Below, in pieces: positions 24,035 to 59,303 of a stretch of DNA of 64,000 nucleotides. Numbering within the stretch: position 1 is the stretch's first letter; every line of letters begins with the position of its first letter. This DNA is from Escherichia phage vB_EcoS_VAH1: sequence record MK373792.1; one strand, 5' to 3'. The notes below the pieces were generated by a model that saw nothing but the letters and a program-made list of their open reading frames with translations, had not been told where the DNA came from and ran no database searches. The position numbers were made by a program, and so were the translations under genes.

Positions 24035-24041
24035 AAAAATT

Positions 24042-24835: not shown

Positions 24836-24841
24836 ATTGTT

Positions 24842-25415: not shown

Positions 25416-25535
25416 TTGATTGTTTTCAGTGCAAGAGTCCGAGTCTTGGACACGACCGCTTCGCAAGTACATAGGCAGCTTATCATGAGTCAGCACTTCC
25501 GAATTGCTAGCTCCGTGTTCTGCACTGAAATTTTA

Positions 25536-25883: not shown

Positions 25884-25908
25884 AGTATATTCTCATACTA
25901 AATTAATT

Positions 25909-25985
25909 TGGCGCGACCGATGGGATTTGAACCCACATTCCCTCCCGTGACAGGGGAGTACCATTACCAAGCCAGCCCCGGTCGC
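25909..25985 (-). tRNA. tRNA-Asp (anticodon GTC)
   Basis: Perfect acceptor GCGACCG/CGGTCGC, arm CTCCC-CTGTCAC-GGGAG, T-loop TTCAAAT. Confidence 0.65.
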
Positions 25986-25994
25986 ATAATTCAT

Positions 25995-26180
25995 TTACTC
26001 AGCTTTGAGTTTTTCAATAGCTGCATTAAGTTCTTTAAGAAACTCTTTTCGTACATTAAGACGATTGAGACTTACTAGTATATCGTGTTTAAGTTCTTCG
26101 ATGTATTTCTTTTCAACTTCAATATTGTTGATAGTGCTATCACGATGAACTTCTAGCTGCGCAATTACATTCTTGGACAT
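25995..26180 (-). CDS. small coiled-coil protein
   Basis: 61-aa ORF. Confidence 0.3.
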   Translation of the reverse strand: MSKNVIAQLEVHRDSTINNIEVEKKYIEELKHDILVSLNRLNVRKEFLKELNAAIEKLKAE

Positions 26181-26282
26181 GCTTGTTTCCTCAGTTATTA
26201 ATGAAAATGGTATCTGTGGCTGAATTCGATGTCAGCAATGATAGCTGGTTGGCTACCGGTTTACTTAACTCTACACAGAATT

Positions 26283-26360
26283 TGGCGGTTCCTGCTGGAT
26301 TTGAACCAGCAACCCTCAACTTAACAAGATGCCGCTCTAACCAATTAGAGCTAAGGAACC
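26283..26360 (-). tRNA. tRNA-Asn (anticodon GTT), tentative
   Basis: Perfect acceptor GGTTCCT/AGGAACC, D-arm GCTC...GAGC, loop TTGTTAA, weak anticodon stem. Confidence 0.5.
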
Positions 26361-26855
26361 ATATAAGTCAGAACTAGAGTTAATACGTTCTAGATATTTA
26401 CTAAGATCTCTAGAATTTATACTAAACCACTCATGCTCTTTTAAATCTTTGAAATACTGGTGAATTAGTTTTTCACCTTTTCGTTTGTCAAACCAAAAAG
26501 ACCAGTGCTCTAACTTATAATCCCTATAAGGGGAATAAGTCTGATATTGAGCTAATCTCTCTTTTGGATTTTGACTCATACCTATTTTATACTGATTTTT
26601 CCATGCAGGATTACTAATACAGTATACAAAACCTTCAGAAATAGGAAGTTTATTTTCCTGCTTAAACTTTATAAAGGAAAGTGCAGCAAGTTTTCTCGAA
26701 TACATAGTATTTGTATTCTTTTTGGTATTACCATTGGTTCCTGAAAGACTTATATATTCTTCCATAAATCTTTGGATTAGTTCTGCGGTTATATAGAAGG
26801 GCTCATTAGTAACAACGCCTTTCTTTACCAAACTATCAAAAACTTTTGTATGCAC
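26337..26855 (-). CDS. GIY-YIG-like (T5orf172/MUG113-type) domain protein
   Basis: GFVYCISNPAWKNQYKIGMS...ERLAQYQTYSP...EWF. Confidence 0.55.
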   Translation of the reverse strand: MHTKVFDSLVKKGVVTNEPFYITAELIQRFMEEYISLSGTNGNTKKNTNTMYSRKLAALSFIKFKQENKLPISEGFVYCISNPAWKNQYKIGMSQNPKERLAQYQTYSPYRDYKLEHWSFWFDKRKGEKLIHQYFKDLKEHEWFSINSRDLSKYLERINSSSDLYGSLALIG

Positions 26856-26876
26856 TACTTCTTTCCTTTAGTAATT

Positions 26877-26952
26877 TGGACGACCGCATGAGATTTGAAC
26901 TCACATAAAAAGGATTTGCAATCCTTCGCCTAAGCCATTCAGCCAACGGTCG
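26877..26952 (-). tRNA. tRNA-Cys (anticodon GCA)
   Basis: Arm AAGGA-TTGCAAA-TCCTT perfect; T-loop TTCAAAT; CCA encoded. Confidence 0.65.
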
Positions 26953-27130
26953 ATTTATCTTGTTTTTCGAGATCTTCAAATTCTAAATCATTGAAGTTCC
27001 CTAGAGTACGGGAGTAGAGCCCGTCTCCTGCGTCATAGCCTGATTTGCCACAATCACACATTTTAAGTTCACGAAGATGTGTAAAAACATGTTCAGAACC
27101 ACAACACTTAAATCTAACTAATCGTTTCAT
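26939..27130 (-). CDS. small Cys-rich protein
   Basis: FKCCGSEH...CDCGKSG. Confidence 0.3.
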   Translation of the reverse strand: MKRLVRFKCCGSEHVFTHLRELKMCDCGKSGYDAGDGLYSRTLGNFNDLEFEDLEKQDKSTVG

Positions 27131-27179
27131 TAGCTTCTCCAGTTCAATTTATGTAATTATTATATAGAACTTTTGGAAA

Positions 27180-27467
27180 CTAAGCAACTACATTTTTTAA
27201 GAATTTGATGCCTTTCTTTTTCTTCTTATATTTCCATGTTAATGGATTCTGTCGGTTATGAACGCTTGAGATCCTTGTCTCGTCAAAGTTCTTCAATATC
27301 ATGTAATCACAGGATAATTGTTCTAGTGGAATGTGATCACCGTCAAAAGCGTATACATAAGGCTGTTGACTAGCACGATAATGATAGACTTTGTTAATTC
27401 TACGTTTCAGCGACTTATCCGTGCAGTAAATAAAGAAGTTTTCAGGATGCATCAGCATCTCCTTCAA
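27180..27467 (-). CDS. hypothetical protein
   Basis: 95-aa ORF. Confidence 0.35.
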   Translation of the reverse strand: MKEMLMHPENFFIYCTDKSLKRRINKVYHYRASQQPYVYAFDGDHIPLEQLSCDYMILKNFDETRISSVHNRQNPLTWKYKKKKKGIKFLKNVVA

Positions 27468-27469
27468 TT

Positions 27470-27544
27470 TGGTGCACCCTGTTCGAATTGAACGAACCTC
27501 TCAAGCTCTTCAGGCAAGCGCTAATCCATCTCAGCTAAAGGTGC
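27470..27544 (-). tRNA. tRNA-Phe (anticodon GAA), tentative
   Basis: Acceptor GCACCTT/AGGGTGC, T-arm GTTCG-TTCAATT-CGAAC, loop CTGAAGA. Confidence 0.45.
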
Positions 27545-27550
27545 AAATTT

Positions 27551-27621
27551 TGGCAGGGGTAAAGGTATTCGAAACCTTTTCATGGGTTTTGGAGGCCCAT
27601 TTGCAACCTATGCGTACCCCA
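27551..27621 (-). tRNA. short tRNA-like element (~71 nt), identity unresolved
   Basis: T-arm AAGGT-TTCGAAT-ACCTT and CCA present; D and anticodon arms atypical. Confidence 0.3.
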
Positions 27622-27630
27622 ATTGTTAGT

Positions 27631-27704
27631 TGGCACACCCACGGAGAATTGAACTCCGATTCTCAGATTGAAATCCTGATGTCCTAGCCATTAGACGATA
27701 GGTG
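27631..27704 (-). tRNA. tRNA-Glu (anticodon TTC)
   Basis: Arm TCAGG-ATTTCAA-TCTGA, T-arm CGGAG-TTCAATT-CTCCG. Confidence 0.55.
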
Positions 27705-27713
27705 CATTAAATT

Positions 27714-27801
27714 TGGTGGGCGTTAATGGAGTCGAACCACTCGAGTCGCAATGACCAGGGATTTACAATCCCCTCCGCTACCACTTACGGAATAAACGCC
27801 C
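27714..27801 (-). tRNA. tRNA-Tyr (anticodon GTA), type II
   Basis: Perfect acceptor GGGCGTT/AACGCCC, arm GGGGA-TTGTAAA-TCCCT, long variable arm, T-loop TTCGACT. Confidence 0.6.
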
Positions 27802-27929
27802 ATATTTAGAAGCATTCAAATACTTGTTTAAACACTTTTAAATATGTTTCCAAATTAGATAACTATTATACCAGGTTTTAATGCACTGAGCAAGTCAAAT
27901 TTTGAAGAACTTGCTCAGTGCTGTATTAG

Positions 27930-28205
27930 TTAGTCGAACTTAGGAGTGACAGTTAAGGAGAACGGAAGTTCGAAAACTTCTTCGCCCTCATTACTAACGG
28001 TAACTACACGACCTTTAAGTTCAGACATTAAAATATCAATATCAGCTCTTGCATCTGGAGCCATGCCAGCTTCAATACATTTAGCTTTAACTTCCGGTAA
28101 AAGCTCTACGTTATAGAGATAGAGCCACTCAATCTCACCTTCCCAGTCTTCCCAGGATTTGCAGATTGCACTTTCAATACCAGTTGCTACAACACGATTT
28201 TGCAT
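27930..28205 (-). CDS. hypothetical acidic protein
   Basis: 91-aa ORF. Confidence 0.4.
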   Translation of the reverse strand: MQNRVVATGIESAICKSWEDWEGEIEWLYLYNVELLPEVKAKCIEAGMAPDARADIDILMSELKGRVVTVSNEGEEVFELPFSLTVTPKFD

Positions 28206-28295
28206 TAGTTAATTCCTTCATCAATTTATATAACTATTATATCAGAAATTTAAAGTAAAAGGCAAGTACATTTTTAAAAATTCTGTTTGGAGGAG

Positions 28296-28502
28296 CTAAA
28301 CTCCGGATTCTTCGGCCAAGTCTAGACTAATAAGAGTTATAGCCATAATTGCTGCACCGTGTTCTTTTTCTCCGGTGTTTTTAGCCGAGTCTATAATACC
28401 CTTAATCTGTTCGTAATAACTTTTTACTTCTTGTTCAATGCCTGCCTCAGCTATCATGCCTTTAGCCATGAATCGTTGCATGGTAATTTCAGGATTAGCC
28501 AT
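28296..28502 (-). CDS. hypothetical small protein
   Basis: 68-aa ORF. Confidence 0.35.
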   Translation of the reverse strand: MANPEITMQRFMAKGMIAEAGIEQEVKSYYEQIKGIIDSAKNTGEKEHGAAIMAITLISLDLAEESGV

Positions 28503-28691
28503 GTTGTTTCTCCAGTTTCATTTTTAATAGTTTACAGATGAAATCAACGTCTTCATCTGTGCCTAAGTCTCTATCCTCAAGAGTCGCCTTGAAGTTTTTC
28601 GTCAATTCCATGAGGATGACTTCCCTAGAACGACGTGTTGGCGGAGGTGGATGTCTATACATCTTATTTCCTTAATTTGGTAGGGATTATA

Positions 28692-29375
28692 TCATCTACT
28701 TTTCTTAATACTTTTAGGATCTTTCCCTGTTAGGGACTTATACCTTTTCCTTAATCCAGTATCAGATAATCCTAGTTCTTTGGAGGCACGAATCCAGGAA
28801 TATTTAGATACCCAGTACTCTATTTGCTCCACAGTAATATCTGGATTTATAGTTATCTCTTTAGGAGTACATGATTTACAGTGTGTTGCTCTTGAACTAA
28901 TTTCGCAGTGACAAATAGCACACGTATTTACAGCTCTTTCTGTATACCTGCCAATATTTTTGCCTGCATGAGTAGGTGTTAGTGCATGGCAATTTGGACA
29001 TAGGAGGGCTAAGTTATCCCATTCATTATTATAGTGATTTCCATCCTTGTGTTCGAGTTCTAAAGGAATTGGTTTGTCTAACCAACTTTCTAAGCCACAA
29101 CTCTCACACTTATGTGGTTTTAGCCCCTCGTTAAGAATTTTATTCTTTAGTTTATAGGAAGAAATAGGGCTGCCGTTATATAAATACTCTGTTGCAGACT
29201 TATATTTATTATCATACTGCCTATTCGCAGGAATAACTACTATTCCTAGTTTTCCTAAATATGCTTCCAAAGTGTTCGAGGAGCAGGATAGCATTCTTGC
29301 TATCTCTGCTTTAGATTTTCCCTGAGCTATCCACTGAGCTATTTCTTCCTTTCTATCTAGTATATCAGTTCTCAT
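28692..29375 (-). CDS. HNH homing endonuclease with N-terminal HTH and shared C-terminal module
   Basis: HKCESCG...LELEHKDGNHYNNEWDNLALLCPNCH; C-terminus near-identical to 21164..21745. Confidence 0.7.
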   Translation of the reverse strand: MRTDILDRKEEIAQWIAQGKSKAEIARMLSCSSNTLEAYLGKLGIVVIPANRQYDNKYKSATEYLYNGSPISSYKLKNKILNEGLKPHKCESCGLESWLDKPIPLELEHKDGNHYNNEWDNLALLCPNCHALTPTHAGKNIGRYTERAVNTCAICHCEISSRATHCKSCTPKEITINPDITVEQIEYWVSKYSWIRASKELGLSDTGLRKRYKSLTGKDPKSIKKSR

Positions 29376-29398
29376 AGTTTATGACTTTCTAATTAAGC

Positions 29399-29476
29399 TG
29401 GTGGCTCCCCGAGGATTCGAACCTACGTACCTTCCAGTTATGAGCTGGGTGCTCATACCATATGAGCTTGAGAACC
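29399..29476 (-). tRNA. tRNA-Met type (anticodon CAT); third CAT tRNA, could be the Ile2 (lysidine) species
   Basis: D-arm GCTC...GAGC, arm CCCAG-CTCATAA-CTGG, T-arm GTAGG-TTCGAAT-CCTCG. Confidence 0.55.
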
Positions 29477-29482
29477 AGAATT

Positions 29483-29571
29483 TGGCGGAAGAAGTGGGAA
29501 TCGAACCCACAAGGCTATATTTCAAACCGACAGATTAGCAATCTGCTGCAATACCGTTATGCTATTCTTCC
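29483..29571 (-). tRNA. tRNA-Ser (anticodon GCT), type II
   Basis: Perfect acceptor GGAAGAA/TTCTTCC, arm GCAGA-TTGCTAA-TCTGT, long variable arm. Confidence 0.6.
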
Positions 29572-29592
29572 GAATTTATAAGATATATTATA

Positions 29593-30162
29593 TTAGAAAT
29601 TTAGCTTCATGGCAAGAAAATTTTTCAAGTTTTCGGTAGACATCTCATCCACATCTATAGGAGAAACAAACCCATTTAATTGTCTAGCAAACTTTTCACC
29701 AGCAGGATCATTATCCCCAACAGCTACCAATTTAAAAGGTAGTAATTTCAATTGCTTTAACAATGCTTTTCCGGGGGAAGAACCCAACATTGCCAGGGCT
29801 GGATAACCAGCGTTATGTAACGCAACTGCCTTAAATACAGATTCAGCAATCAATACTACTTTTTCATCTCCATTGAGAGTTTCTAGTCCCCATACACACT
29901 GTGTAGTAGAATAAGTAAAATATCTAGCTTCAAGGGGGCACTTACCATGACCTTTTGGAGCAGAAGGATTATAAGTCTGATAGCCTCTCAACATCCCAGA
30001 GAAGTCATACAATGGGACTGTTAGCCATCCTTCCGGGCTTAACCAGCAATGATATTTATCTGTATCAAACCCTCTAGATAAGAGATGTTCTGTTAGTTCA
30101 TCAACAGTCATACTAGATTCCTCTCTCAAATTTATAAATATATTATACAGAGAATTTAGCAT
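29593..30162 (-). CDS. stand-alone Toprim-domain protein
   Basis: VVLIAESVFKAVALHNAGYPALAMLGS...KLVAVGDNDPAGEKFA matches DnaG-type Toprim; no zinc finger or helicase part. Confidence 0.5.
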   Translation of the reverse strand: MLNSLYNIFINLREESSMTVDELTEHLLSRGFDTDKYHCWLSPEGWLTVPLYDFSGMLRGYQTYNPSAPKGHGKCPLEARYFTYSTTQCVWGLETLNGDEKVVLIAESVFKAVALHNAGYPALAMLGSSPGKALLKQLKLLPFKLVAVGDNDPAGEKFARQLNGFVSPIDVDEMSTENLKNFLAMKLNF

Positions 30163-30280
30163 TCAAGCAATTGAATTTTTTAACTTTTTAGAGGAAAATC
30201 ACAGGATGCTTAAGGGTAGCAGGTAAGTGGTCAGGACCGAAATTTGTGACCCCACTAAAAATCTGGGGGCAATTTTTAAA

Positions 30281-30320
30281 GACCCCTTGACATTTTCGCT
30301 GGGGTAGTGTAAAGTATATG
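30281..30320 (+). promoter_or_regulatory. sigma70-like promoter for the plus-strand island
   Basis: TTGACA at ~30281, ~17-18 nt spacer, TGn + TAAAGT; AGGAGG RBS before ATG at 30368. Confidence 0.5.
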
Positions 30321-30367
30321 TTATGGATGAGTGATCAAAGAGACACACATTTTCTATATACTAGGAG

Positions 30368-31360
30368 GTGTCAAAAATGACAGAAGAAGTAGCTAAGAGT
30401 CCTGAGACCGTCGCTAGCGTTGCAGCAGAACTGCACCGTCACGAGGAATCAGATAAGAAAAAGTGGGAGAAGGTCAGAGCCTACGAAGAAAAACATCGTG
30501 AACACGATGATGAAGAAGATGACGATGAGCATTGTCATAAATATGGAAAACATAAAATGCAAGAACCAGTAAACGTATTTACTAGTGGCTTCCCTGGCCT
30601 ACTTGGTGGTTACCCAGCAAACGCAAGTGCTTTCGGTGGCGAAGGTATGGGACTATTCGGAGCTATCCTAATCGGTGCTCTATTAACAGGCGGGTTCGGT
30701 GGTTTCGGTGGATTCGGTGGACGTGGTGTAGTTGGTGATGGTACCGCAGTTGATGCAGTACTTCAGAACCAAGATACCGCTAGTATTCTAGCAGCTATTA
30801 ACACTACTCGTACAGAAGCTAACCAGGGTACTGGAGCTGTTTTAAGCGCAGTTAACAATGGTTTTAGCCAGACATCCCAAAACCAGAGCCGTGATACTCA
30901 GTCTGTACTAACTACGATCTATGGTACAGGTGCTAATCTGTCTAATCAGATCTGCCAGGAAACTCGCAACGTTATTCAGGGTCAGTTCGATCTTTCTCGC
31001 CAGATTGATCAATCTTTCGCAGCTAACCAGATAGCTCGTGCACAAGATAAGTTTGATTCTGCACAGATCGCTTTCCAGCAGACTTTACAAACTAATAACC
31101 AGTTTGCCGCTGTTCAGGCTCAGATGTGTGCTAACCAGAACTCTCTGGAACGTCAGATCGCTGAATGTTGCTGTGAACTTCAGACTGCGATCGCTGGTGT
31201 AACTACTGCGCGTATTCAGGATGAGTTAGATGCATGTCGCCTACGTGAAGCAATCGCTGCGGGTAACGGTGCTAACGGTCAGGTAATTAATCAAATCGCT
31301 GTAAGTCTTGGTGCTATCACTCAGACTCTGGCTGGTCTGCAGGCTAAACTGCCGGCTTAA
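30368..31360 (+). CDS. acidic/His-rich N-domain + glycine-zipper TM segment + Gln/Asn/Ala-rich helical C-domain protein; function unknown
   Basis: DDEEDDDEH; GLFGAILIGALLTGGFGGFGGFGG; Q/N/T-rich tail with CCC cluster; codon usage unlike neighbours. Confidence 0.55.
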   Translation: MSKMTEEVAKSPETVASVAAELHRHEESDKKKWEKVRAYEEKHREHDDEEDDDEHCHKYGKHKMQEPVNVFTSGFPGLLGGYPANASAFGGEGMGLFGAILIGALLTGGFGGFGGFGGRGVVGDGTAVDAVLQNQDTASILAAINTTRTEANQGTGAVLSAVNNGFSQTSQNQSRDTQSVLTTIYGTGANLSNQICQETRNVIQGQFDLSRQIDQSFAANQIARAQDKFDSAQIAFQQTLQTNNQFAAVQAQMCANQNSLERQIAECCCELQTAIAGVTTARIQDELDACRLREAIAAGNGANGQVINQIAVSLGAITQTLAGLQAKLPA

Positions 31361-31381
31361 TATTAAGGGGAGGAGCCCATT

Positions 31382-31798
31382 ATGAGTAAATATGGTTTTG
31401 TAAATAACGGACTTAATCAAAGTATGGGCTCCCAGCAGCCCATTCCGGGTCTGGATAACCCCTACTTACAACAATTGCAACAGCGTTTAGCAGAAGCGCA
31501 ACAGATGCAGCAACAACTCCAGCAAAACCCTGGAAGTGTGAGTCCTATGCAAATGATGCAGCAAATGAGCGGGCAGTCGCAAATGCCTCAACAAATGCAG
31601 CAACAGGTGCCGCAGCAGCAAGCTCAGCAGCAAACCCAACAACCGCAGGTTTCTGCGGAAGGACAGGCAGTACTAGCCCTTTTCGAAGACTTCGCAAAGA
31701 CAGAGGATGGTAAGCAGCTTGTATCACTTATGGGTAAGTTTAATAGCTTCTGCCAAAGCCAGGTTGCAAAAGCTCAAAATAGTGGTAATAACTCCTAA
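31382..31798 (+). CDS. Gln/Met-rich low-complexity (prion-like) protein
   Basis: QQLQQRLAEAQQMQQQLQQNP...MQMMQQMSGQSQMPQQMQQQVPQQQAQQQTQQ; GGAGG RBS. Confidence 0.5.
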   Translation: MSKYGFVNNGLNQSMGSQQPIPGLDNPYLQQLQQRLAEAQQMQQQLQQNPGSVSPMQMMQQMSGQSQMPQQMQQQVPQQQAQQQTQQPQVSAEGQAVLALFEDFAKTEDGKQLVSLMGKFNSFCQSQVAKAQNSGNNS

Positions 31799-31807
31799 GG
31801 AGGAATT

Positions 31808-32002
31808 ATGTGTTGCAGAAAATCTGTTTCGTGCTGCCCAATGCCTGTAGCACGTTGTTGCTCTCCAGCAATGTTTACGCAAATACCGGCGTTCAATCCG
31901 TTTGCCTTTAAGCCTACTCTTATCCTGCCCCCTAGAGTAGATTTTCAGTCAAGATTGGCCTCCCGTATGGGTGGTTGCTGTAATAAGAGTATATGGTTCT
32001 GA
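31808..32002 (+). CDS. small Cys-rich protein (CC pairs)
   Basis: MCCRKSVSCCPMPVARCCSP...GGCCNK; AGGAGG RBS. Confidence 0.35.
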   Translation: MCCRKSVSCCPMPVARCCSPAMFTQIPAFNPFAFKPTLILPPRVDFQSRLASRMGGCCNKSIWF

Positions 32003-32018
32003 AGAACCAAACAATAAA

Positions 32019-32053
32019 GCCCCTAAGTCTTTCGACTAGGGGCTTTTCTTTTA
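32019..32053 (+). terminator. rho-independent terminator closing the plus-strand island
   Basis: GCCCCTAAGTC...GACTAGGGGC hairpin followed by TTTTCTTTT. Confidence 0.6.
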
Positions 32054-32060
32054 TCTTAAA

Positions 32061-32097
32061 TACAGAAAAGCCCTGCGCTCTCCAGGAAACGCAGGGC
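32061..32097 (-). terminator. rho-independent terminator for the SPFH gene (convergent)
   Basis: GCCCTGCG...CGCAGGGC 8-bp stem with T-run on the minus strand. Confidence 0.6.
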
Positions 32098-32122
32098 TTA
32101 TTTCAGATGTTACATGCGGGTA

Positions 32123-33070
32123 TTATTTATTACGCATATCCATAATCATTTGGCCATCATAGCCAGTGCCAACCACAGTCTGCGGTACACCACCTTGGTA
32201 TTTCTGAGCACGAATCATTTCAACTTCCAGTTGCTTCCAGCGAATCATCTCAGGAGTAATGGTACGTTGCAACGCGGCGTTAGCTTCAGCTTCTTTCTTA
32301 GCTGCGTACAGTTTGGCATCTGCGTCACGCTCATTGGCAATAGCTTGGTTATTACGAGCTTCGCGATCTGCTTCTGCTTGTTTAACCTTCTGCTGTGCTT
32401 CTTGTTCAACACGAGCCAGTTCAGCTTTCGCAGCATTAACTTGCTCTTCACGAACTTTGGTATTCTGTACCTGTTCCATGATTACCGGTGGCAAAGTAAT
32501 ATCCTGAAGGAATACCTGCTTAACTGTATAACCATATGGGCGTGCATACTCTTCAACTTCCTGTTGAATTGCAGTTTGCAATTGAGCCTGAATTTTAGCA
32601 TCAAACAAATCTTGTGCTTTAGGTACAGACTTACCAAACTCACGAATAGTAGACAGTAATTTTTCAGTTACATATTTATCTAGTGCTTGATCCTGGGTGC
32701 CTGCGTTAATACGGTTAATCGGTGCCTTAGAACCATCAAATTGTAACATAACAGTCAGGTCAACAGTGGATTTAAACTTATCTTGGCTAGGAACCTGAAG
32801 TTTATCTAATTTTACAGCAATATCTTTTGTACTAAAAGTATCGAAAGATGCAAATGGGTTTACAAGATGGAAACCAGGTAATACTGGGTTAGGATCTACT
32901 TTACCTAGAAATGTTTGGGTTTTAACCGTACCATCAGAAACAATAGTATATGAATTAAAAGCTAGGATTAAACCTGCTAAACCAACTACAGCACCAATAC
33001 CCCAACGTTTAATAGTGCGAATTACTTTTTGCTCAGAAGTCAGTTCTTTCATATTTTTAGTATTAAACAT
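32123..33070 (-). CDS. SPFH/Band-7 (prohibitin/stomatin/HflKC-like) membrane protein
   Basis: N-terminal TM (WGIGAVVGLAGLILAF), SPFH-like core, long Ala/Glu/Gln coiled-coil tail. Confidence 0.7.
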   Translation of the reverse strand: MFNTKNMKELTSEQKVIRTIKRWGIGAVVGLAGLILAFNSYTIVSDGTVKTQTFLGKVDPNPVLPGFHLVNPFASFDTFSTKDIAVKLDKLQVPSQDKFKSTVDLTVMLQFDGSKAPINRINAGTQDQALDKYVTEKLLSTIREFGKSVPKAQDLFDAKIQAQLQTAIQQEVEEYARPYGYTVKQVFLQDITLPPVIMEQVQNTKVREEQVNAAKAELARVEQEAQQKVKQAEADREARNNQAIANERDADAKLYAAKKEAEANAALQRTITPEMIRWKQLEVEMIRAQKYQGGVPQTVVGTGYDGQMIMDMRNK

Positions 33071-33104
33071 ATATTTCCTTTGTTTTAGTTACAGTTAATA
33101 AAAT

Positions 33105-33179
33105 TGGCCGAGGTGACAGGATTCGAACCTGCATAAAGGAATTTAGAAGACTCCTGCCTCTCCCTTAGACTACACCCCG
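33105..33179 (-). tRNA. tRNA-Arg (anticodon TCT)
   Basis: Acceptor CGGGGTG/CACCTCG, arm GGAGT-CTTCTAA-ATTCC, T-arm GCAGG-TTCGAAT-CCTGT. Confidence 0.55.
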
Positions 33180-37601: not shown

Positions 37602-37838
37602 TTAAAGAGCTGTCTCTTTAATAGACTCCCACTTCTTGGGGTCTTTAAAACCAGGAAGCATATCCTCACTGACATCCCAGTTCTCTTCCATAGAGAAGTC
37701 AGGCCATTCATTCCAGCTACCTTCCAATTCTTCATAACAGGTATCCATTACCTCATGACTAGAAAGTCGTGTATAATCTCTAGCGGACTTATGAGTGCTA
37801 GCACGGTTAAAATCATTCTTTGCTACAAAATTACGCAT
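37602..37838 (-). CDS. small acidic Trp-rich protein
   Basis: 78-aa ORF. Confidence 0.35.
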   Translation of the reverse strand: MRNFVAKNDFNRASTHKSARDYTRLSSHEVMDTCYEELEGSWNEWPDFSMEENWDVSEDMLPGFKDPKKWESIKETAL

Positions 37839-50631: not shown

Positions 50632-51060
50632 ATGTTCAATAATGTATTCTCTAAAGAAGCTAACCCAATATTGGTTAATTTTTGGCGTACTCTTCCAGCC
50701 AACCTGTACAATGAGGCTATTAATGCTCTGAAAATATGGTGTGAGAATAATGAAATCTCCTTTGCTTTTAAGGGTGAGATTGAAGAAGCTCCCTGTATTG
50801 GTTTAATTGTGCAGGTAGAGGATGGTCTGGAAGAGATTGTCGGCTGGAAAGAGTTGGATGAAATGGGGTTGGTTTTTGCATTAAACTATAAGCTATTTAT
50901 GCCCAATAAACACCGTATTGTTGTTAATTATAAAACCAGTGAATCTCCGGGCTTTCAAGTTAATGAACATTACGGTTGGTCTTACTCACCGGAAGAAGTA
51001 AATGATGGTATCCAGAAACTTCGTCGTTTTGGTTATCAAATTCCTGGTTTAACCGCCTAA
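50632..51060 (+). CDS. hypothetical protein, tandem paralog A
   Basis: Shares EEAPCIG...W.EL.EMGL..ALN..LF.P pattern with 51070..51462. Confidence 0.45.
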   Translation: MFNNVFSKEANPILVNFWRTLPANLYNEAINALKIWCENNEISFAFKGEIEEAPCIGLIVQVEDGLEEIVGWKELDEMGLVFALNYKLFMPNKHRIVVNYKTSESPGFQVNEHYGWSYSPEEVNDGIQKLRRFGYQIPGLTA

Positions 51061-51069
51061 GGGGGCACA

Positions 51070-51462
51070 ATGGAACAAGTATATTGGCGTCAGATTGATC
51101 CTAGTTTGGTGAAGCGTGCGGAGAAGCTGCTACAACGTTGGTTGGGGGTAAGACAAGCTTCCTTCACTTTTCCGGAGCAGCAAATAGACGATCCCTGTAT
51201 TGGTGTTTTCCTATCAGGCTACGCTAGGGAATGGGAACTGGATTGGAATGAATTGTCTGCTATGGGTTTAATTGTTGCACTAAATTTCTCTTTGTTCCAT
51301 CCACGTGGTTTTGCCATATGTTGTGTGCCTGATGATGGTTGTTCGCCCCATCTTTTACAGGTGGAAGATGATATTTGGGAGTACACTCCAGATATTCTCA
51401 AAGAAGCTAAAGAACAATTAAATCGTGTTGGGATTTATGTTCCAGGCCTGAATGATGAATGA
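51070..51462 (+). CDS. hypothetical protein, tandem paralog B
   Basis: DDPCIG...WNELSAMGLIVALNFSLFHP; paralog of previous gene. Confidence 0.45.
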   Translation: MEQVYWRQIDPSLVKRAEKLLQRWLGVRQASFTFPEQQIDDPCIGVFLSGYAREWELDWNELSAMGLIVALNFSLFHPRGFAICCVPDDGCSPHLLQVEDDIWEYTPDILKEAKEQLNRVGIYVPGLNDE

Positions 51463-51547: not shown

Positions 51548-52054
51548 TTGTCGTTGACAATTTGGATGGATTATGTAATAATATATGTATTGGAGGTGAG
51601 GATGTCATTCACACAGCAAGAACTTTTAGATAACTTCCGATATGAAGATGGTAAGTTATTTAGAACTACAGGAAGAAATGCAGGGAAAGAATGTTGTGTC
51701 TCTACTGGTAACGGATATTATCGTATATCTCTAGGGAATAGGACTATGCTTCGGCATAGAGCAATATTTTTAATGCATCATGGATACTTACCTGATTTAG
51801 TAGATCATGTGAATACTGTAAAAGGTGATGATCGTATTGAAAATCTTAGAGAGCAGACAGTATCCGGTAATCTAAGAAATATCAAATATAAGAAAGGAAT
51901 GCATGTTTACCCTTCTGGTAGTAATAACTGGCAAGTAGTATTTACTATTAACCGTAAACGTATAGTTAAAGGAACATATGACAACTATGAGGTTGCATGT
52001 TCTATGGCCAAGATGTTTAGAGGTCAACTATACGGTAGGGAATCAATCCAGTAA
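51548..52054 (+). CDS. HNH homing endonuclease (HNH_3/AP2-type)
   Basis: LRHRAIFLMHHGYLPDLVDHVN...N..NL; own promoter with two TTGACA elements. Confidence 0.7.
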   Translation: MSLTIWMDYVIIYVLEVRMSFTQQELLDNFRYEDGKLFRTTGRNAGKECCVSTGNGYYRISLGNRTMLRHRAIFLMHHGYLPDLVDHVNTVKGDDRIENLREQTVSGNLRNIKYKKGMHVYPSGSNNWQVVFTINRKRIVKGTYDNYEVACSMAKMFRGQLYGRESIQ

Positions 52055-52511
52055 AATTTCATTTGCAAGGGAGTATTATTTTATAGTATAATATTCCCAT
52101 AAATGAGAGACATTAGTAAAAATTGATTTTGCTAATTTTTCTTGTTTACAATCCGCGATACGGAACAGTTAGGCTGCCCCATTAAGGGTTGTTTTAACTG
52201 TTACGTGTTAGTTTTTAAACAAATAGTTAATAGAATACTTAGCGATCTGCGTCCCGTAGGAACCCTGGTAAGGCCTCGAAGCAACCTAGATAGAGGTGGT
52301 TGTGAAGTGAGACGGGAGGAGTGAAAAACTCCGAGACGTGATTCTGTAAGTTATATTGCATCTAGTATGAGCTAGTATATGAAGCATTAGGTGAGCAAAT
52401 CTGGCTTAGCGGCCATCCTCAAGGATTTGTGCGGTATAGCAAAGCAGCAGCGCAGCGTGAGAGTGGAAGTTGCCACCCCACTTCAGTATTTGAGATTAAT
52501 TTGTTGAGAAA

Positions 52512-55379
52512 TTGACAGTAACAGTTGTTCTATTCTTTCTGAATAGTCCTAAAGAAAACTTATTTCATTTCCAACACAGGAGTATTGTTGTGTTTTCAAT
52601 CCTACAAGGTCATGCAGGATTTCATCGCGATTTAGCCACGGGCAATTGGCGAGAAGTTAAAGCAGAAGACTATCTTTTTGCTAAAAGATTTTCCTCAAAG
52701 CATCCTGAAGGTAAACCAGCTTCAATGCCCTTCAAGTTTGATGTAATTGATGAAGTTGATCCTCAAACCCTAGTAGAAATGCTTCCTCTTATGAGACGTT
52801 TAACGTCTGACCCTCATATCGTTGCGGTACGAGGTCGATGTCTTGCACCTAAAAATAATGTGCGACGTAAGAAGGGCAACTTTAATGTATCTAACCCAAG
52901 TCATATAATTGCAATGGACGTGGATGGTATTGTAGATACAGGTGGTTGTAACAAGTTTGATCTTGTTGGCATGGCTCGACACATTATTAGAATGTTAAAT
53001 AGTATTAGTGAGGATATGTTTCCTCTTGATGCAGGGTTTATCGCTCATGCATCGTCTTCGGCTGGGCTAAAACCAGGTATCCGAATGCACTTAATACTAG
53101 AATCTAATGTTAAAGTAACTCAGGGTCAAATCAAGTTCTTATTTACATCTATCAATGAAAGTAGTAGACAAAAGTATGGCTTTGATATTGCCGACTTAGC
53201 TTATTACTCTTCCGTACAGCTCCATTACTTTGCAGATCCTTTATTTATTGATGGTATAGTCGATCCGTTTAAAGCGGAGGGTGCTTCACGTCTGGTATTT
53301 GTTAAAGGCTCAAAAGTAAATTTACCTAATAATCTAGTTGACTATGAAACAACTAGAGGAGAGTTTAAAGAGGAATTCTACTCTTTACTCGATCAAATTA
53401 AAGGTAAAAAAGCTGCCTCTGATAAAGTAGAAGAAACTATCAGCGAACTAGAAGAAGCTGAGGATGGAGTGTATCTACGTATTATTCCTAAACTCTATCA
53501 CAGGGCTTTAGAGGATGGTGTTGATTTTGCATGGCTAGAAAAAGAAATCCGTCCAGCCTTATCAGAATATATTGCAACTAAAGATAATAGTCGTAATATT
53601 CAAGACTACTTTAATAACGGTCGTAAACAGGCTCTAAAAGCGTTTGTTAATAATTCTAAGCGTGAGATCCCTGAAGTATTAAAAGGTATCCCCCTTAAAA
53701 AGCTAGAAACTAATTCACTAGAGACCGACAACTTCTTGAAATTAAATACTGTACCACCAGAAGGCTATATGACTTTTGTAAAAGCAAGTCTAGGCACAGG
53801 TAAAACCACGGCGGTTGTGCGTTGGTTAGATTCAGGGGTTATTAAAGGTAATTTCTTAGCAATTACCAATACTAGAGCACTGGTATCTTCAAATGCTAAG
53901 AAATTTAGTGCAGGACAATATGATAAGTCTGTAGATATGCTTAATTTTAAGCGTGGTGCTATTGACCGTATGTCCACAACTATTCACTCTTTGCATAAAT
54001 TCAAGAGTTTTATTGGTCAAATTGATGCAATCTTTATCGATGAATGTGATGCAGTAATGAATGACCTATTATTCGCCCCGGTTGTTAAGCAACGTCGTGA
54101 ATGTATTCAGGTTCTTCGGGATATTCTTGCAACTGCAAAAATCATTATATTATCTGATGGTGATATTAGTGCAGAAACAATTGAAGCATATGGTTCTTTG
54201 ATTGAGTTTGATAAACCGGTCGCATTTTATAATCATCATCGTAAGATGTTGTCAAAAGCTCATGCTTATGAGTTCCCTGATGAATCTAGTATTTGGGTTG
54301 CACTTCAAACATCACTAGAGATGGGTGAGAAATCTATTCTAGTATCTGATTGCGGCCCAGATGAGCTGAATGAGAAAGGTATGGCATTACGTCGTAATAC
54401 GGGTGCATTAGTTAAAGAAATCCATTCAAACTCTACATCTGATGTGGATATTAGACGTATTCTGGATTACACAACTAATGAGCTAATTGATCAACAAATT
54501 GATTGCTTATTATGTAGTCCATCCGTAACGAGTGGTGTTGACTTCAACTATTTTGATAACGTATTCGTTATTACTAGAACCAGTAACCAGGCGCCGAACA
54601 TGCGTTTTCAAGCAATCAGGCGCGACCGTGGTGCTCAGAATATCTATTATTTTATTGATAAATCCACTAGTGGATTCTCCGCAGGTTCTGAGCAATATAA
54701 CATTGATGAAGGTTGGCTCGAATTAGCACAGCAGTTATATGCACGTCGTAGGGAATTAGAGTCTAGGAACTATACTAGTACCTTACGCTATTACTTGCTT
54801 GATCAGGGAGCAACTATTGATATTTTCAGTGAAAGCTGGGGAACTATTGAAGGTGCTGGTAAAGAGTACACAGAAGAGCGAATCAAAGCTATTCTGCACT
54901 CAACTCCTGATTATTGTGCTCCACGTCATGCGGATGCGTATGAAGCTAAACTACTTCTTGTTCGCTATTATCATCTTGAGTCTATTAAAGATGTAACAGT
55001 TGAGCATGTTGAACAATATATCAAAGATAAGCCGAATGATCGAGCTGCATTCTTCCATAAGATGCACGAGATGTTCTGGGAAGATATTAAGAAGTGTTCA
55101 AATGTGACCATTAAACCATTCATAGAAGCTCTGAAAGGTAAGAAGAAGGACTTCTTCCTTAAAACAGGTCAGAGTGCTAACCCAAAATATGCTAGAATGT
55201 ATCTTGGTATGATGGGTATTGGTAAAGATATGAACACGGAGAATATCGTAGACTGGTACAGAACCTATTGTAAAATCGAATGTATGCCAATTCCTTTCAA
55301 ATTTATGACAGAGGAAGAGAAGGCTATGGCAGAAGAAGCAATGTCAGAGCTAGGTGCTAGAAATGACAGTGAAGAATAA
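52512..55379 (+). CDS. replication origin-binding-protein-like SF2 helicase (probable true start GTG ~52589 after AGGAG)
   Basis: Walker A ASLGTGKTT, Walker B IFIDECD, helicase motifs in C-half. Confidence 0.55.
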   Translation: MTVTVVLFFLNSPKENLFHFQHRSIVVFSILQGHAGFHRDLATGNWREVKAEDYLFAKRFSSKHPEGKPASMPFKFDVIDEVDPQTLVEMLPLMRRLTSDPHIVAVRGRCLAPKNNVRRKKGNFNVSNPSHIIAMDVDGIVDTGGCNKFDLVGMARHIIRMLNSISEDMFPLDAGFIAHASSSAGLKPGIRMHLILESNVKVTQGQIKFLFTSINESSRQKYGFDIADLAYYSSVQLHYFADPLFIDGIVDPFKAEGASRLVFVKGSKVNLPNNLVDYETTRGEFKEEFYSLLDQIKGKKAASDKVEETISELEEAEDGVYLRIIPKLYHRALEDGVDFAWLEKEIRPALSEYIATKDNSRNIQDYFNNGRKQALKAFVNNSKREIPEVLKGIPLKKLETNSLETDNFLKLNTVPPEGYMTFVKASLGTGKTTAVVRWLDSGVIKGNFLAITNTRALVSSNAKKFSAGQYDKSVDMLNFKRGAIDRMSTTIHSLHKFKSFIGQIDAIFIDECDAVMNDLLFAPVVKQRRECIQVLRDILATAKIIILSDGDISAETIEAYGSLIEFDKPVAFYNHHRKMLSKAHAYEFPDESSIWVALQTSLEMGEKSILVSDCGPDELNEKGMALRRNTGALVKEIHSNSTSDVDIRRILDYTTNELIDQQIDCLLCSPSVTSGVDFNYFDNVFVITRTSNQAPNMRFQAIRRDRGAQNIYYFIDKSTSGFSAGSEQYNIDEGWLELAQQLYARRRELESRNYTSTLRYYLLDQGATIDIFSESWGTIEGAGKEYTEERIKAILHSTPDYCAPRHADAYEAKLLLVRYYHLESIKDVTVEHVEQYIKDKPNDRAAFFHKMHEMFWEDIKKCSNVTIKPFIEALKGKKKDFFLKTGQSANPKYARMYLGMMGIGKDMNTENIVDWYRTYCKIECMPIPFKFMTEEEKAMAEEAMSELGARNDSEE

Positions 55380-58477: not shown

Positions 58478-59303
58478 ATGACCAATGTAAAAGAATTTAT
58501 TAAACGCTGTCAAGAAGCATATTATCAAGGTATGTCTTTAATCTCTGATGAGGAATATGATTGCCTAGTAAAACGCTTCCCGTTAGAGGAAGAGATCGGG
58601 CCTAAGGGTGATATTCCACATCTGTATCGTATGTATTCTTTACAGAAAGTTTACTATAACCGTGGAGATAAACCACCATTCAATCCTTTAGGTCAGGTGG
58701 AAACCGATAAGTTAGATGGTTGTGCAATTTCTCTGCTATATATTTAATGGCGAATTTGTTCAAGCACTAACTCGTGGTAATGGTATTCTGGGGAATGATG
58801 TCACAAGCAACGTAAGATTGCTGAACATCCCTAAAAAGATTTCCCAAAAAGTACCTACTCAAATCACTGGTGAAGTTCTAATTACAAAAGAAGTAGAAAA
58901 TAAACGTAACTTTGCCTCTGGTGCTATTAACCTCAAAGATAGTGATGCTTTTGTACAACGTATCGGGGAAGGTGGTTTAATCTTCGTTGCATACGGTATC
59001 CAGTGTTCTGCTGAATCTGTAGGTATTACAGAAGCGTATTTAAAAGATATGCTTTGGCTAGAGAATGAGAACTTCTTAACAGTTGTTATGTGCGTTCCTC
59101 CTTTAAAATGGATTCCGACGGACGGTAAAGTTGTTCGTATTAATGACAACAACAAATTCTTCCGGGAAGGCTGGACTAATAAATTCCCTCGTGGGGCATT
59201 CGCTATTAAAGAGGATGAAGAAGGCGAGATTACAACTCTTACTAAAGTTGAATGGCAGGTAGGGGCTTCTGGTAAAGTTCCAGTTGGTTATTTCGAACCG
59301 TAA
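58478..59303 (+). CDS. lig: NAD-dependent DNA ligase, adenylation part, internally frameshifted (track ORFs 58478..58747 and 58716..59303)
   Basis: KLDG adenylation lysine in first ORF; TRGNGILGNDVTSN and onward in second ORF; junction at CTATATATTTAATGG. Confidence 0.75.

What the first reader, a model, noticed from the sequence alone, without database searches (positions are those of the whole stretch)
52055..52590. ~530-bp structured non-coding region in front of the replication module
Between the HNH gene and the helicase-like gene there is no credible ORF, yet the region has GC-rich potential stems (e.g. GGGAGGAGTGAAAAACTCC) and promoter-like elements (TTGACAGTAACAG...). Its position directly upstream of the replication genes makes it a candidate origin, regulatory RNA or intron remnant.
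Basis: inference. Interest (0 to 1): 0.45.

Follow-up and report, generated by a model that had tools for sequence, protein, structure and literature searches.

The report
Large structured RNA before replication gene
The "empty" 530 bp in front of this T5-like phage's replication-initiator gene encodes a roughly 430-nucleotide, intricately folded, pseudoknotted RNA that is conserved by shape across T5-like phages and matches no catalogued RNA family, so a classic model phage appears to carry an undescribed large RNA next to its replication machinery.

Summary
Window 52055-52589 is non-coding and lies between an HNH endonuclease gene and the UL9-like "replication origin binding" (ORB) helicase gene of a T5-like phage.

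It is the template of a large + strand structured RNA, 52133-52562. The RNA has at least 12 helices and a loop/internal-loop pseudoknot, and follows a T5-type early promoter (52063-52092).

The structure is supported by compensatory changes:
- Sequence-only alignments give 97-98% paired cells against about 40% for slid controls.
- 17 of 27 core pairs change on both sides, and 3 of 4 pseudoknot pairs do so.
- Ten lineages keep the same helices with different sequences: Tequintavirus, Epseptimavirus, and Klebsiella, Pectobacterium, Pantoea, Providencia and Proteus phages.

No ORF is conserved. There is no Rfam hit in any lineage, no iterons or DnaA boxes, and no copy in E. coli genomes or plasmids.

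Its "TTGACA promoter" is one strand of a long-range helix.

My best reading is a cis-acting structured leader of the ORB early mRNA, probably processed at its 40-50-bp closing duplex. A released trans-acting RNA or an origin-linked role remains open. An intron remnant is rejected. Function is untested.

The parts
52063..52092 (+). Sigma-70 T5-type early promoter (TTGCAA-N18-TATAAT), followed by the GAGAGA box typical of T5 early promoters. Predicted start near 52099.
   Evidence: Promoter scan. The same promoter sits about 95 nt before the 5' hairpin in T5, L028, L034 and L035. The T5 record annotates a terminator and then a promoter here.
52133..52143 (+). P0 5' strand (outermost helix), pairs with 52552-52562.
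   Evidence: Inverted repeat I3. RNAalifold pairs columns 12-18 with 432-438. Only the inner 7 bp are robust, and they do not vary among type A and B.
52157..52183 (+). P1, the 5' hairpin GAU-ac-GG-aa-CAG / CUG-CC-cc-AUU. It is the most sequence-conserved part of the element.
   Evidence: Predicted by RNAalifold. Compensatory GG/CC to AG/CU (L040, L028) and CAG/CUG to CGG/CCG (L040). A DNA pattern for it occurs in IMG/VR only in T5-like contigs, plus chance hits in GC-rich coding sequence.
52185..52239 (+). P2a (52185-52188) and the 5' strand of the long closing duplex P2 (52195-52239).
   Evidence: Duplex of 30-53 bp in 8 lineages with unrelated sequences, z = -4 to -7.4 against shuffles in 7 of 8. 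G-C to A-U compensatory change at 52200/52522. 11 G.U pairs in the window copy.
52247..52257 (+). P3 5' strand (52247-52251, CUGCG) and P4 5' strand (52252-52257).
   Evidence: P3 forms seen: CUGCG/CGCAG, CUACA/UGUAG, CUGUG/CACAG, CUGCA/UGCAG, CUGUA/UACAG, CUAGAA/UUCUAG. 3 of 5 pairs change on both sides. P4: 3 of 6 pairs.
52275..52317 (+). P4b (52275-78/52308-11), the P5 hairpin (52281-86/52298-303) with loop UAGAUAGAGGU, and the P4 3' strand (52312-17).
   Evidence: the count of structure pairs gives P4b 2 of 3 and P5 4 of 6 pairs with changes on both sides, 98-100% paired.
52293..52296 (+). Pseudoknot 5' strand (GAGG in the P5 loop), pairs with CCUC at 52417-52420.
   Evidence: 100% paired, 3 of 4 pairs changed on both sides on a sequence-only alignment. 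GAGG/CCUC, AAGG/CCUU and AGAG/CUCU are on that alignment; CAUG/CAUG and UAGG/CCUA come from the curated table.
52318..52340 (+).
   Evidence: Covaries in type-A-like lineages. Absent from the T5 type.
52396..52429 (+). P8 (52396-401/52424-29) enclosing the P9 hairpin (52403-05/52412-14). P9 has the invariant loop UUAGCG (52406-11). The 3' internal loop carries the pseudoknot 3' strand (52417-20).
   Evidence: RNAalifold. P8 has 3 of 6 pairs changed on both sides. The UUAGCG hairpin is present in every lineage, including Providencia and Proteus phages.
52451..52455 (+). P3 3' strand (CGCAG). The P3-enclosed core is 206-216 nt in all 32 sequences examined.
52462..52482 (+). P10 hairpin AGUGG-AAGUUGCCACC-CCACU.
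   Evidence: AGGGG/CCCCU in L003 and GUAUGA/UCAUAC against AUAUGA/UCAUAU in type B. AGGAGG/CUUCCU in L093 was read by eye from the sequence printed.
52485..52562 (+).
   Evidence: P11 covaries outside types A and B: CUUUCC/GGAAAG, AUACUAU/AUAGUAU, CUAUC/GAUAG.
52578..52592 (+). Shine-Dalgarno AGGAG (52578-82) and GTG start (52590) of the ORB gene (to 55379), 16 nt after the end of the structure.
   Evidence: ORB matches Pfam Herpes_ori_bp, PHROG 3712 and solved UL9 structures over residues 388-533.

Best explanation
**What it is (shown).** The region is the template of a roughly 430-nt + strand RNA that folds into a compact multi-helix domain. The domain has outer clamp helices P0, P2a and P2, a 5' hairpin P1, a core of P3-P10 and a covarying pseudoknot between the P5 loop and the internal loop beside the UUAGCG hairpin. 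Helices are kept by compensatory substitutions in every T5-like lineage examined.

**How it is made (inferred).**
- It is transcribed from the T5-type early promoter at 52063-52092.
- In T5-type phages no promoter or terminator separates it from the ORB start.
- It is therefore the 5' leader of the early mRNA for the UL9-like replication-initiator helicase.

**Most likely mechanism (inferred).** It acts in cis on ORB synthesis.
- The 5' and 3' flanks zip into a 40-50-bp duplex that ends 16 nt before an exposed Shine-Dalgarno.
- That duplex is the kind of double-stranded RNA that host RNase III cuts. Processing would detach the folded core and give the ORB message a new 5' end, setting its stability and translation.
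- The sequence-invariant P1 hairpin and the UUAGCG loop would be docking sites for a phage or host protein, possibly ORB itself, giving feedback on initiator level.
For: **Structure**
- Domain I on a MAFFT alignment: 97.2% paired, 11 of 18 pairs changed on both sides, 0 of 500 shuffles, slid controls 38-61%.
- Core plus pseudoknot on 10 sequences: 98.1% paired, 17 of 27 pairs changed on both sides.
- RNAalifold on a sequence-only alignment of 25 type A and B phages independently recovers P0, P1, outer P2, P3, P8, P9 and P11 (counts).
- Curated table of 10 lineages: 354 of 357 cells canonical, 32 of 40 columns changed on both sides.
- P2 duplex z = -4 to -7.4 in 7 of 8 lineages.

**Strand**
- 19 G.U and 0 A.C in the curated helices, and 3-13 G.U per P2 duplex.

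**Non-coding**
- No conserved ORF.

**Leader status**
- A conserved promoter lies about 95 nt before P1. The T5 record shows terminator, then promoter, then 470 nt, then ORB.
- No promoter or terminator lies between the structure and ORB in the window or in L030.
- The element is always directly upstream of ORB and co-oriented with it.

**Processing stalk**
- The P2 duplex is 30-53 bp. E. coli RNase III cleaves double-stranded RNA of about two helical turns or more (established knowledge).
Against: - No transcript, processing or binding data were available.
- The SD and start codon are not part of any conserved helix. The local CAACA/UGUUG hairpin is not conserved, so there is no obvious occlusion mechanism.
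- A fold of 12 or more helices with a pseudoknot is far more elaborate than known protein-binding translational operators.
- In Proteus phage Stubb, the homologous domain (assigned by eye) has its own perfect consensus promoter, and a second perfect promoter sits between it and ORB. There, ORB expression need not pass through the RNA.
- MFE z-scores alone are unimpressive and do not separate the strands. ssDNA parameters give a similar architecture.
Confidence: 0.45

Rival explanations
1. It is a free-standing, trans-acting stable RNA. The folded core, about 300-390 nt, is released from the leader or made from its own promoter. It then works as a scaffold, a ribonucleoprotein partner or a ribozyme, for example with the ORB helicase at initiation (in the way phi29 pRNA serves a DNA motor) or against a host defence. 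Its position upstream of ORB serves co-expression only.
For: - The size, pseudoknot and conserved junction and loop nucleotides (UUAGCG, GAGAAGUG, UAG..AGGU) resemble large functional RNAs more than operators.
- The closing duplex looks like the rRNA-type stalks that excise mature RNAs.
- Proteus phage Stubb has separate perfect promoters for the RNA domain (1705-1733) and for ORB (2435-2464).
- A second promoter-like site, TTGATT-N18-TACAAT (52123-52152), would start transcription right at P1.
Against: - No terminator follows the structure in any lineage scanned.
- The core changes quickly and even swaps sub-domains: P6 is absent from the T5 type, and domain I of type B is not found by a type-A model. 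That is unusual for a catalytic core.
- It has never been seen away from ORB.
Confidence: 0.3
2. It is an origin-linked element, working in one of two ways. (a) The transcript primes or opens the main T5 origin, as a persistent RNA-DNA hybrid in the manner of ColE1 RNA II or the T4 oriF/oriG transcripts. (b) The displaced + strand DNA adopts this fold and is recognised by the UL9-like ORB protein, as herpesvirus UL9 recognises the hairpin form OriS*.
For: - It lies immediately upstream of the only UL9-like initiator gene.
- The equivalent T5 position (59.1-59.5 kb of 121.75 kb) is near the genome centre. From my memory, 1970s electron microscopy placed the first origin there; I did not check this.
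- The flank at 52050-52150 is AT-rich, 23% GC.
- The + strand is G-rich, with skew up to +0.45.
- ssDNA parameters reproduce the architecture.
- Compensatory changes cannot tell RNA from same-strand ssDNA.
- The UUAGCG loop recalls the CS-6 loop of ssoA origins (from memory, a lead only).
Against: - No iterons, tandem repeats or DnaA boxes were found.
- About 20% G.U pairs in P2 and a loop-loop pseudoknot suit RNA better than DNA.
- An R-loop primer does not need a conserved 12-helix fold.
- There is no sequencing-depth or origin-mapping data.
Confidence: 0.15
3. It is a metabolite- or tRNA-sensing riboswitch-like leader that adjusts ORB expression to a cellular signal such as nucleotide pools.
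For: - It has a 5'-leader position with a complex pseudoknotted fold.
- Two alternative pairings are possible for the segment after P1: GGGUUGU with upstream ACAAUCC (found by RNAalifold) or with downstream UCCU (part of the duplex). The L034 and L040 equivalents were read by eye.
Against: - No match to any riboswitch or T-box model.
- Few invariant core nucleotides across lineages, with whole sub-domains replaced.
- No expression platform: there is no terminator, and the SD is not sequestered.
Confidence: 0.05
4. It encodes small proteins, the 60-aa and 38-aa ORFs that some genome records annotate as hypothetical proteins.
For: ORFs at 52142-52324 and 52391-52507 exist. Some records annotate them.
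Against: - The ORFs are truncated, lost or shifted even among 94-99% identical relatives.
- They have no cross-lineage peptide similarity.
- L024 has none of 25 aa or more on the + strand.
- Substitutions are paired across helices, not placed by codon position.
Confidence: 0.02
5. It is a degenerate group I (or other) intron associated with the adjacent HNH homing endonuclease.
For: Its size (300-400 nt) and its neighbourhood to an HNH gene.
Against: - It lies between genes, not inside one.
- The HNH gene is outside the fold and absent from T5 and most relatives, which keep the RNA.
- No Intron_gpI or gpII hit even at E <= 10 on a 506-nt query.
Confidence: 0.01

Closest known systems
Structured leaders and translational operators of replication genes (ColIb-P9 repZ / IncB repA pseudoknot leaders; phage T4 gene 43 and gene 32 operators)
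   Same: A cis RNA element directly upstream of a replication-initiation gene. The plasmid cases also have a pseudoknot, and protein or RNA feedback is expected.
   Different: Those elements are 20-150 nt and overlap or act on the ribosome-binding site. This one is about 430 nt with 12 or more helices, its SD is outside the conserved fold, and no antisense promoter was found.
Large bacterial and phage structured RNAs of unknown or recently emerging function (ROOL, GOLLD, OLE, HEARO, raiA)
   Same: Several hundred nucleotides, many covarying helices and pseudoknots, some carried by phages, and found by comparative analysis before any function was known.
   Different: No sequence or structure match to any of them (Rfam 15). 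It is restricted to T5-like phages and is always fused to one specific downstream gene rather than sitting near tRNAs or free-standing.
RNase III processing stalks (rRNA precursor stems; T7 early mRNA R sites; lambda N leader)
   Same: A long duplex formed by sequences flanking a folded RNA or preceding a phage early gene. P2 is 30-53 bp in 8 lineages.
   Different: Cleavage is untested. T7 sites are short local hairpins, not a 330-nt-span long-range clamp.
Origin transcripts and structured single-strand origins (ColE1 RNA II, T4 oriF/oriG R-loops, HSV OriS*, ssoA with its CS-6 loop)
   Same: A promoter-driven, folded, strand-specific element next to replication functions, with a hairpin loop UUAGCG reminiscent of CS-6 TAGCGT.
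   Different: There is no evidence of origin activity and none of the defining sequence blocks of those systems. The pseudoknotted multi-junction fold has no counterpart in them.
phi29 pRNA
   Same: A phage-encoded structured RNA that is a working part of a nucleic-acid motor. This is a conceivable model for an RNA partner of the ORB helicase.
   Different: There is no sequence or structural similarity. pRNA is 174 nt, has its own gene and acts in packaging. The partnership here is pure conjecture.

Membership tests
Any Rfam 15 family (4227 covariance models, including riboswitches, T-box, RNase P, tmRNA, 6S, ROOL, GOLLD, OLE, HEARO, group I/II introns) | Score at or near the family's gathering threshold | tested here: not met
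   Only noise hits of 13-29 bits against thresholds of 34-114, in the window and in 11 loci covering the other lineages.
Group I intron | Interrupts a gene whose exons are joined by splicing | tested here: not met
   It lies between a stop codon (52054) and the ORB start (52590). The upstream neighbour differs among relatives.
Group I intron | Conserved P3-P7 catalytic core with guanosine-binding site | tested here: not met
   No Intron_gpI match at E <= 10. The covariation-supported architecture is nested helices plus one loop/internal-loop pseudoknot.
Group I intron with homing endonuclease | Endonuclease ORF inside the intron and co-inherited with it | tested here: not met
   The HNH gene (51602-52054) is upstream of the promoter. 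T5 and most relatives lack it and keep the RNA.
tRNA / tmRNA | Cloverleaf or tRNA-like domain with tag ORF detectable by ARAGORN | tested here: not met
   The 21 tRNAs are all at 19834-33179. None lies in 52000-52600, and no tmRNA was found.
Bacterial RNase P RNA (lead from motif resemblance ACAGAAC..CGGCU and GGCUUAnCGG) | CR-I and CR-V blocks forming P4 | tested here: not met
   No RNaseP model hit. By eye there is no GNAANNUCNGNG block, and the ACNNRA..G..UA spacing fails.
Iteron-type or DnaA-type duplex replication origin | Repeated initiator-binding sites, DnaA boxes, or tandem repeats next to an AT-rich unwinding element | tested here: not met
   Only two weak two-copy direct repeats were found, neither an iteron array and one copy lying at the end of the variable HNH cassette. 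There are no tandem repeats and no DnaA-box-like site in 52055-52590. An AT-rich stretch does exist at 52050-52150.
Replication origin (functional definition) | Replication starts here in vivo | not testable with these tools
   This needs marker-frequency sequencing, 2D gels or electron-microscopy mapping.
ssoA-type single-strand origin | CS-6 (TAGCGT) in a terminal loop, plus the RSB element, on a rolling-circle replicon | tested here: inconclusive
   The terminal loop UUAGCG closed by GGC/GCC is invariant, a 5-of-6 match to my recalled CS-6. RSB was not searched. The host replicon is a linear dsDNA phage, not a rolling-circle plasmid.
RNase III processing stalk | Double-stranded RNA of about 20 bp or more formed by the flanks of the processed RNA | tested here: met
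   P2 duplex of 30-53 bp in 8 lineages. Actual cleavage is not testable here.
Translational operator or SD-sequestering leader | A conserved structure includes the Shine-Dalgarno or start codon | tested here: not met
   The SD (52578-82) and GTG (52590) lie 16-28 nt beyond the last conserved helix. By eye on the alignment, the local CAACA/UGUUG pairing is present in types A and B but absent from L028 and L030.
Structured functional RNA (general criterion) | Helices maintained by compensatory substitutions beyond shuffled and slid controls | tested here: met
   In every test 0 of 500 shuffles reach the observed covariation score, against 37-61% pairing when partners are slid.

The most novel reading that the evidence does not exclude
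T5-like phages carry a previously unrecognised class of large (about 300-430 nt) pseudoknotted RNA. It is cut out of the replication-initiator transcript and works as an RNA component of replication initiation: a partner of the UL9-like helicase, or the primer and opener of the long-sought primary T5 origin. On this reading it is not a mere expression leader.
Probability: 0.2. Interest if true: 0.85.

Novelty: new variant of a known kind. Interest (0 to 1): 0.68.

Why it matters
T5 has been a model phage for 70 years, yet its replication origin and initiation mechanism are undefined and no large non-coding RNA has been assigned to it.

- A shape-conserved, roughly 430-nt RNA fused to the initiator gene in every T5-like lineage gives a concrete, mutable handle on how initiator synthesis or initiation itself is controlled.
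- It adds a new family to the short list of large structured RNAs in bacteria and phages.
- It explains why annotators keep placing doubtful "hypothetical proteins" in this gap.
- The two interchangeable "alleles" of the RNA core, in otherwise near-identical phages, give a natural experiment on how a complex RNA fold evolves and recombines.

Tried and rejected
- **Rfam scans.** Three scans (window 2.5 kb, window 506 nt, 11 relatives) found nothing.
- **Single-sequence MFE.** It missed P3 and P8. z-scores were weak and did not separate the strands. Structure had to come from comparison.
- **Structure-aware MAFFT.** MAFFT-qinsi is not installed, so cross-lineage helices were aligned by hand from anchors and then re-tested on sequence-only MAFFT alignments.
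- **Covariance model R1** (domain I, type-A-like). It found only its own seed lineages, not the T5 type, the Klebsiella type, Providencia, Proteus, Vibrio or Aeromonas. Homology of L030 and L036 therefore rests on manual helix-by-helix assignment.
- **IMG/VR pattern scan for P1.** It added only chance hits in GC-rich coding DNA.
- **Metagenome scan with ORB.** It gave 10 loci and one useful new relative, L093.
- **E. coli genomes and plasmids.** No match.
- **RNase P resemblance.** Considered and rejected.
- **Local alternative hairpin** 52160-52171/52195-52206. Not conserved in type B or L034, so it was not adopted as a switch.
- **Anti-SD idea** (P6 3' strand ACUCC against the SD). Dropped, because P6 covaries away from SD complementarity.
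- **Literature.** Seven full-text searches and two papers searched for terms found no description of this element. Subscription-only literature was not searchable.
- **RNA against same-strand ssDNA.** DNA-parameter folding could not separate the two.


Full report
**Setting.** The window is a T5-like phage. The query region matches 437-443 Tequintavirus and Epseptimavirus records at 80-99% identity. The finding lies between two genes:
- an HNH endonuclease gene, 51602-52054 (Pfam HNH_3);
- a 929-aa gene starting with GTG at 52590, with SD AGGAG at 52578-82.

The second gene is annotated "replication origin binding" (ORB) in relatives. Its only recognisable similarity is to the helicase part of herpesvirus UL9 (Pfam Herpes_ori_bp E = 3e-7; solved UL9 structures E = 2e-5; PHROG 3712).

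**Observation check.**
- *No conserved ORF.* ORFs in the gap are at most 60 aa and are conserved only among near-identical genomes. They are truncated or lost within those, and no peptide similarity crosses lineages.
- *GC content.* It is higher in 52250-52500 (0.43-0.52) than in the flanks (0.23-0.35).
It reads ATAGTA in T5 and is one strand of a helix.

**Relatives.** I collected the ORB-upstream DNA from the following sources:
- 35 IMG/VR contigs;
- annotated phage records;
- 10 metagenome contigs.

The intergenic length (about 505 nt) is constant in Tequintavirus and Epseptimavirus. The flanks are 90-100% identical, but the central 260 nt or so falls into two equally long and barely alignable types: A (the window) and B (T5). 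More distant lineages share only short motifs, chiefly GCUUAGCGGC. These are the Klebsiella-type phages L028/29, L034, Pectobacterium My1 (L035), Pantoea AAS21 (L040) with its relative L093, Providencia-type L030/31 and Proteus Stubb (L036).

**Structure.** Comparing lineages showed the same helices built from different sequences. Window coordinates were verified.

| Element | Window coordinates |
|---|---|
| P0 | 52133-43 / 52552-62 |
| P1 hairpin | 52157-83 |
| P2a | 52185-88 / 52547-50 |
| P2 long duplex | 52195-239 / 52485-527 |
| P3 | 52247-51 / 52451-55 |
| P4 | 52252-57 / 52312-17 |
| P4b | 52275-78 / 52308-11 |
| P5 | 52281-86 / 52298-303 |
| P6 | 52318-22 / 52328-32 |
| P8 | 52396-401 / 52424-29 |
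| P9, loop UUAGCG | 52403-14 |
| P10 | 52462-82 |
| P11 | 52530-46 |
| Pseudoknot (P5 loop GAGG with CCUC) | 52293-96 / 52417-20 |

The stretches 52341-52395 and 52430-52450 are not resolved. The P3-enclosed core is 206-216 nt in all 32 sequences examined.

**Tests on alignments made from sequence alone.**

| Alignment | Helices tested | Cells paired | Pairs changed on both sides | Shuffles reaching the covariation score | Slid controls |
|---|---|---|---|---|---|
| A5 (8 sequences) | Domain I | 97.2% | 11 of 18 | 0 of 500 | 38-61% |
| A7 (10 sequences) | P3, P4, P4b, P5, P6, pseudoknot | 98.1% | 17 of 27 | 0 of 500 | 37-57% |
| A6 (25 sequences, 22 distinct) | P0, P1, P2a, outer P2, P3, P8, P9, P11 | 97.0% | 9 of 53 | 0 of 500 | 32-51% |

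- In A7 the pseudoknot is 100% paired, with 3 of 4 pairs changed on both sides.
- RNAalifold on A6, given no structure, recovered P0, P1, outer P2, P3, P8, P9 and P11. 18 of its 76 predicted pairs changed on both sides.
- In the A6 count, P3 has 3 of 5 and P8 has 3 of 6 pairs changed on both sides.
- Closely related genomes show independent events: P3 CUGCG/CGCAG to CUACA/UGUAG, P4 G-C to A-U, P6 G-C to A-U (all) and P10 U-A to G-C.
- L040 against L093 gives P3 C-G to U-A and P5 C-G to U-A. A P8 A-U to G-C change and the L093 P10 changes were read by eye.
- A hand-curated table over 10 lineages gives 354 of 357 canonical cells and 32 of 40 columns changed on both sides. It is curated, so it is biased toward the model.
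- The long P2 duplex exists in 8 lineages with unrelated sequences: 30-53 bp, z = -4 to -7.4 against shuffles in 7 of them.

**Strand and molecule.**
- The curated helices hold 19 G.U and no A.C pairs, and each P2 holds 3-13 G.U. The selected fold is therefore on the + strand.
- Thermodynamics alone does not help. MFE z-scores range from about 0 to -4.5 and are similar for both strands.
- DNA parameters give a similar architecture (against 90). Covariation cannot separate RNA from + strand ssDNA.
- RNA is favoured by the G.U content, by the pseudoknot and by the transcription signals described next.

**Transcription context.**
- A classic T5 early promoter, TTGCA(A/G)-N17/18-TATAAT followed by UUGAGAGA, lies about 95 nt before P1 in the window (52063-92), T5, L028, L034 and L035.
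- The T5 record annotates a terminator (58952-76), a promoter (58999-59073) and then ORB at 59545.
- No promoter or terminator lies between the structure and ORB in the window or in L030. In these phages the RNA is the 5' leader of the ORB message, and it ends 16 nt before an unpaired SD.
- Proteus phage Stubb is the exception. The homologous domain, assigned by eye (P3 CUAACAG/CUGUUAG, P4 AGUAGG/CCUACU, P8 CCACG/CGUGG, P9 with the UUAGCG loop, pseudoknot AUCAGA/UCUGAU), has a perfect consensus promoter upstream. A second perfect promoter sits just before ORB.

**What it is not.**
- It matches no Rfam family in any lineage, and no tRNA or tmRNA.
- It is not an intron. It is intergenic, and the HNH gene lies outside the fold and is absent from most carriers.
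- It has no iterons, tandem repeats or DnaA boxes.
- It is not present in E. coli genomes or plasmids.
- The P1 motif occurs in IMG/VR only in T5-like contigs, plus chance hits.
- Resemblances to RNase P blocks and to the ssoA CS-6 loop came from memory. The first fails on inspection and the second remains a lead.

**Mechanism.**
- *Shown:* a conserved, pseudoknotted + strand fold, always immediately upstream of ORB and co-oriented with it, behind an early promoter.
- *Inferred (best, about 0.45):* a cis-acting leader. Its 40-50-bp clamp is a likely RNase III substrate, so processing would set the 5' end, stability and translation of the ORB message. The invariant P1 hairpin and UUAGCG loop would bind a protein for feedback.
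- *Rivals:*
  - a released trans-acting RNA or ribonucleoprotein component (about 0.3, favoured by the complexity and by the Stubb promoter arrangement);
  - an origin-linked primer RNA or an OriS*-like ssDNA fold recognised by the UL9-like protein (about 0.15);
  - a ligand-sensing leader (about 0.05);
  - small ORFs (about 0.02);
  - an intron remnant (about 0.01).

**Novelty.** I found no description in Rfam 15 or in seven full-text literature searches and two papers searched for terms. Subscription literature could not be searched. The kind of thing, a large structured leader or non-coding RNA, is known. This family, its architecture and its fixed association with a UL9-like initiator gene appear to be new.

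Noticed in passing
window 51602-52106: The HNH endonuclease gene is an insertion found only in some relatives (window, L002, L013, L020; absent from T5). Homology to T5 resumes at TATAATATT (52087), so the cassette's 3' end supplies a new -35 and spacer for the ORB-leader promoter. It also forms a 48-nt hairpin (52059-52106) over the -10, which produced spurious 'mir-3938' Rfam hits.
   Followed up: partly
window 52056-52080 and 52562-52586: A 25-nt direct repeat (76% identity). The sequence right after the HNH stop codon resembles the ORB translation-initiation region, possibly a trace of how the HNH cassette was acquired.
   Followed up: no
window 52210-52470; L013-L027 and L033 equivalents: The central 260 nt or so of the RNA exists as two equal-length 'alleles' (type A, as here; type B, as in T5). 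The boundaries are sharp, inside phages whose flanks and ORB are 88% or more identical. The type A centre is 78% identical to the distant Pantoea phage AAS21, which suggests exchange of RNA modules by recombination.
   Followed up: partly
L011, L023, L032 (about 95 nt inserted at the equivalent of window 52143): A short insertion flanked by a duplicated TTTTTCTT sits in the 5' strand of the outermost helix P0. Its nature is unknown: possibly a small mobile element or an extra RNA module.
   Followed up: no
window 52147-52153 / 52186-52192 / 52547-52550: The segment just after P1 (GGGUUGU) can pair with an upstream partner (ACAAUCC, chosen by RNAalifold) or a far-downstream one (UCCU). Equivalent dual complementarity appears in L034 (CCUUUU with AAUAGG or AAAGG) and L040 (UAUG with CAUA or CAUAA). 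These may be alternative conformations.
   Followed up: partly
L036 (Proteus phage Stubb) 1705-1733 and 2435-2464: Two perfect sigma-70 consensus promoters (12 of 12 positions). One lies before the RNA domain and one lies between it and the ORB gene. The record's annotators placed doubtful small ORFs there and commented on an 'empty low gene density area'.
   Followed up: partly
L041 (Aeromonas phage TS3) 218-1809; L037 (Vibrio phage JSF12) 1-1041; L038, L039: More distant Demerecviridae also have large unannotated or dubiously annotated gaps upstream of ORB, up to 1.6 kb. Neither the UUAGCG hairpin nor the domain-I model was found there, so they may hold a different RNA.
   Followed up: no
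window 19834-33179 (- strand): A cluster of 21 tRNA genes, as expected for a T5-like genome.
   Followed up: no
window 50632-51060 and 51070-51462: The two ORFs upstream of the HNH gene (homologues of T5.106 and T5.107) carry the same VOG label in one annotated relative, so they may be tandem paralogues.
   Followed up: no
window 37630-37695 (- strand): A weak hit of the domain-I covariance model (14.8 bits, E = 0.35) with most of the model deleted. Probably chance.
   Followed up: no
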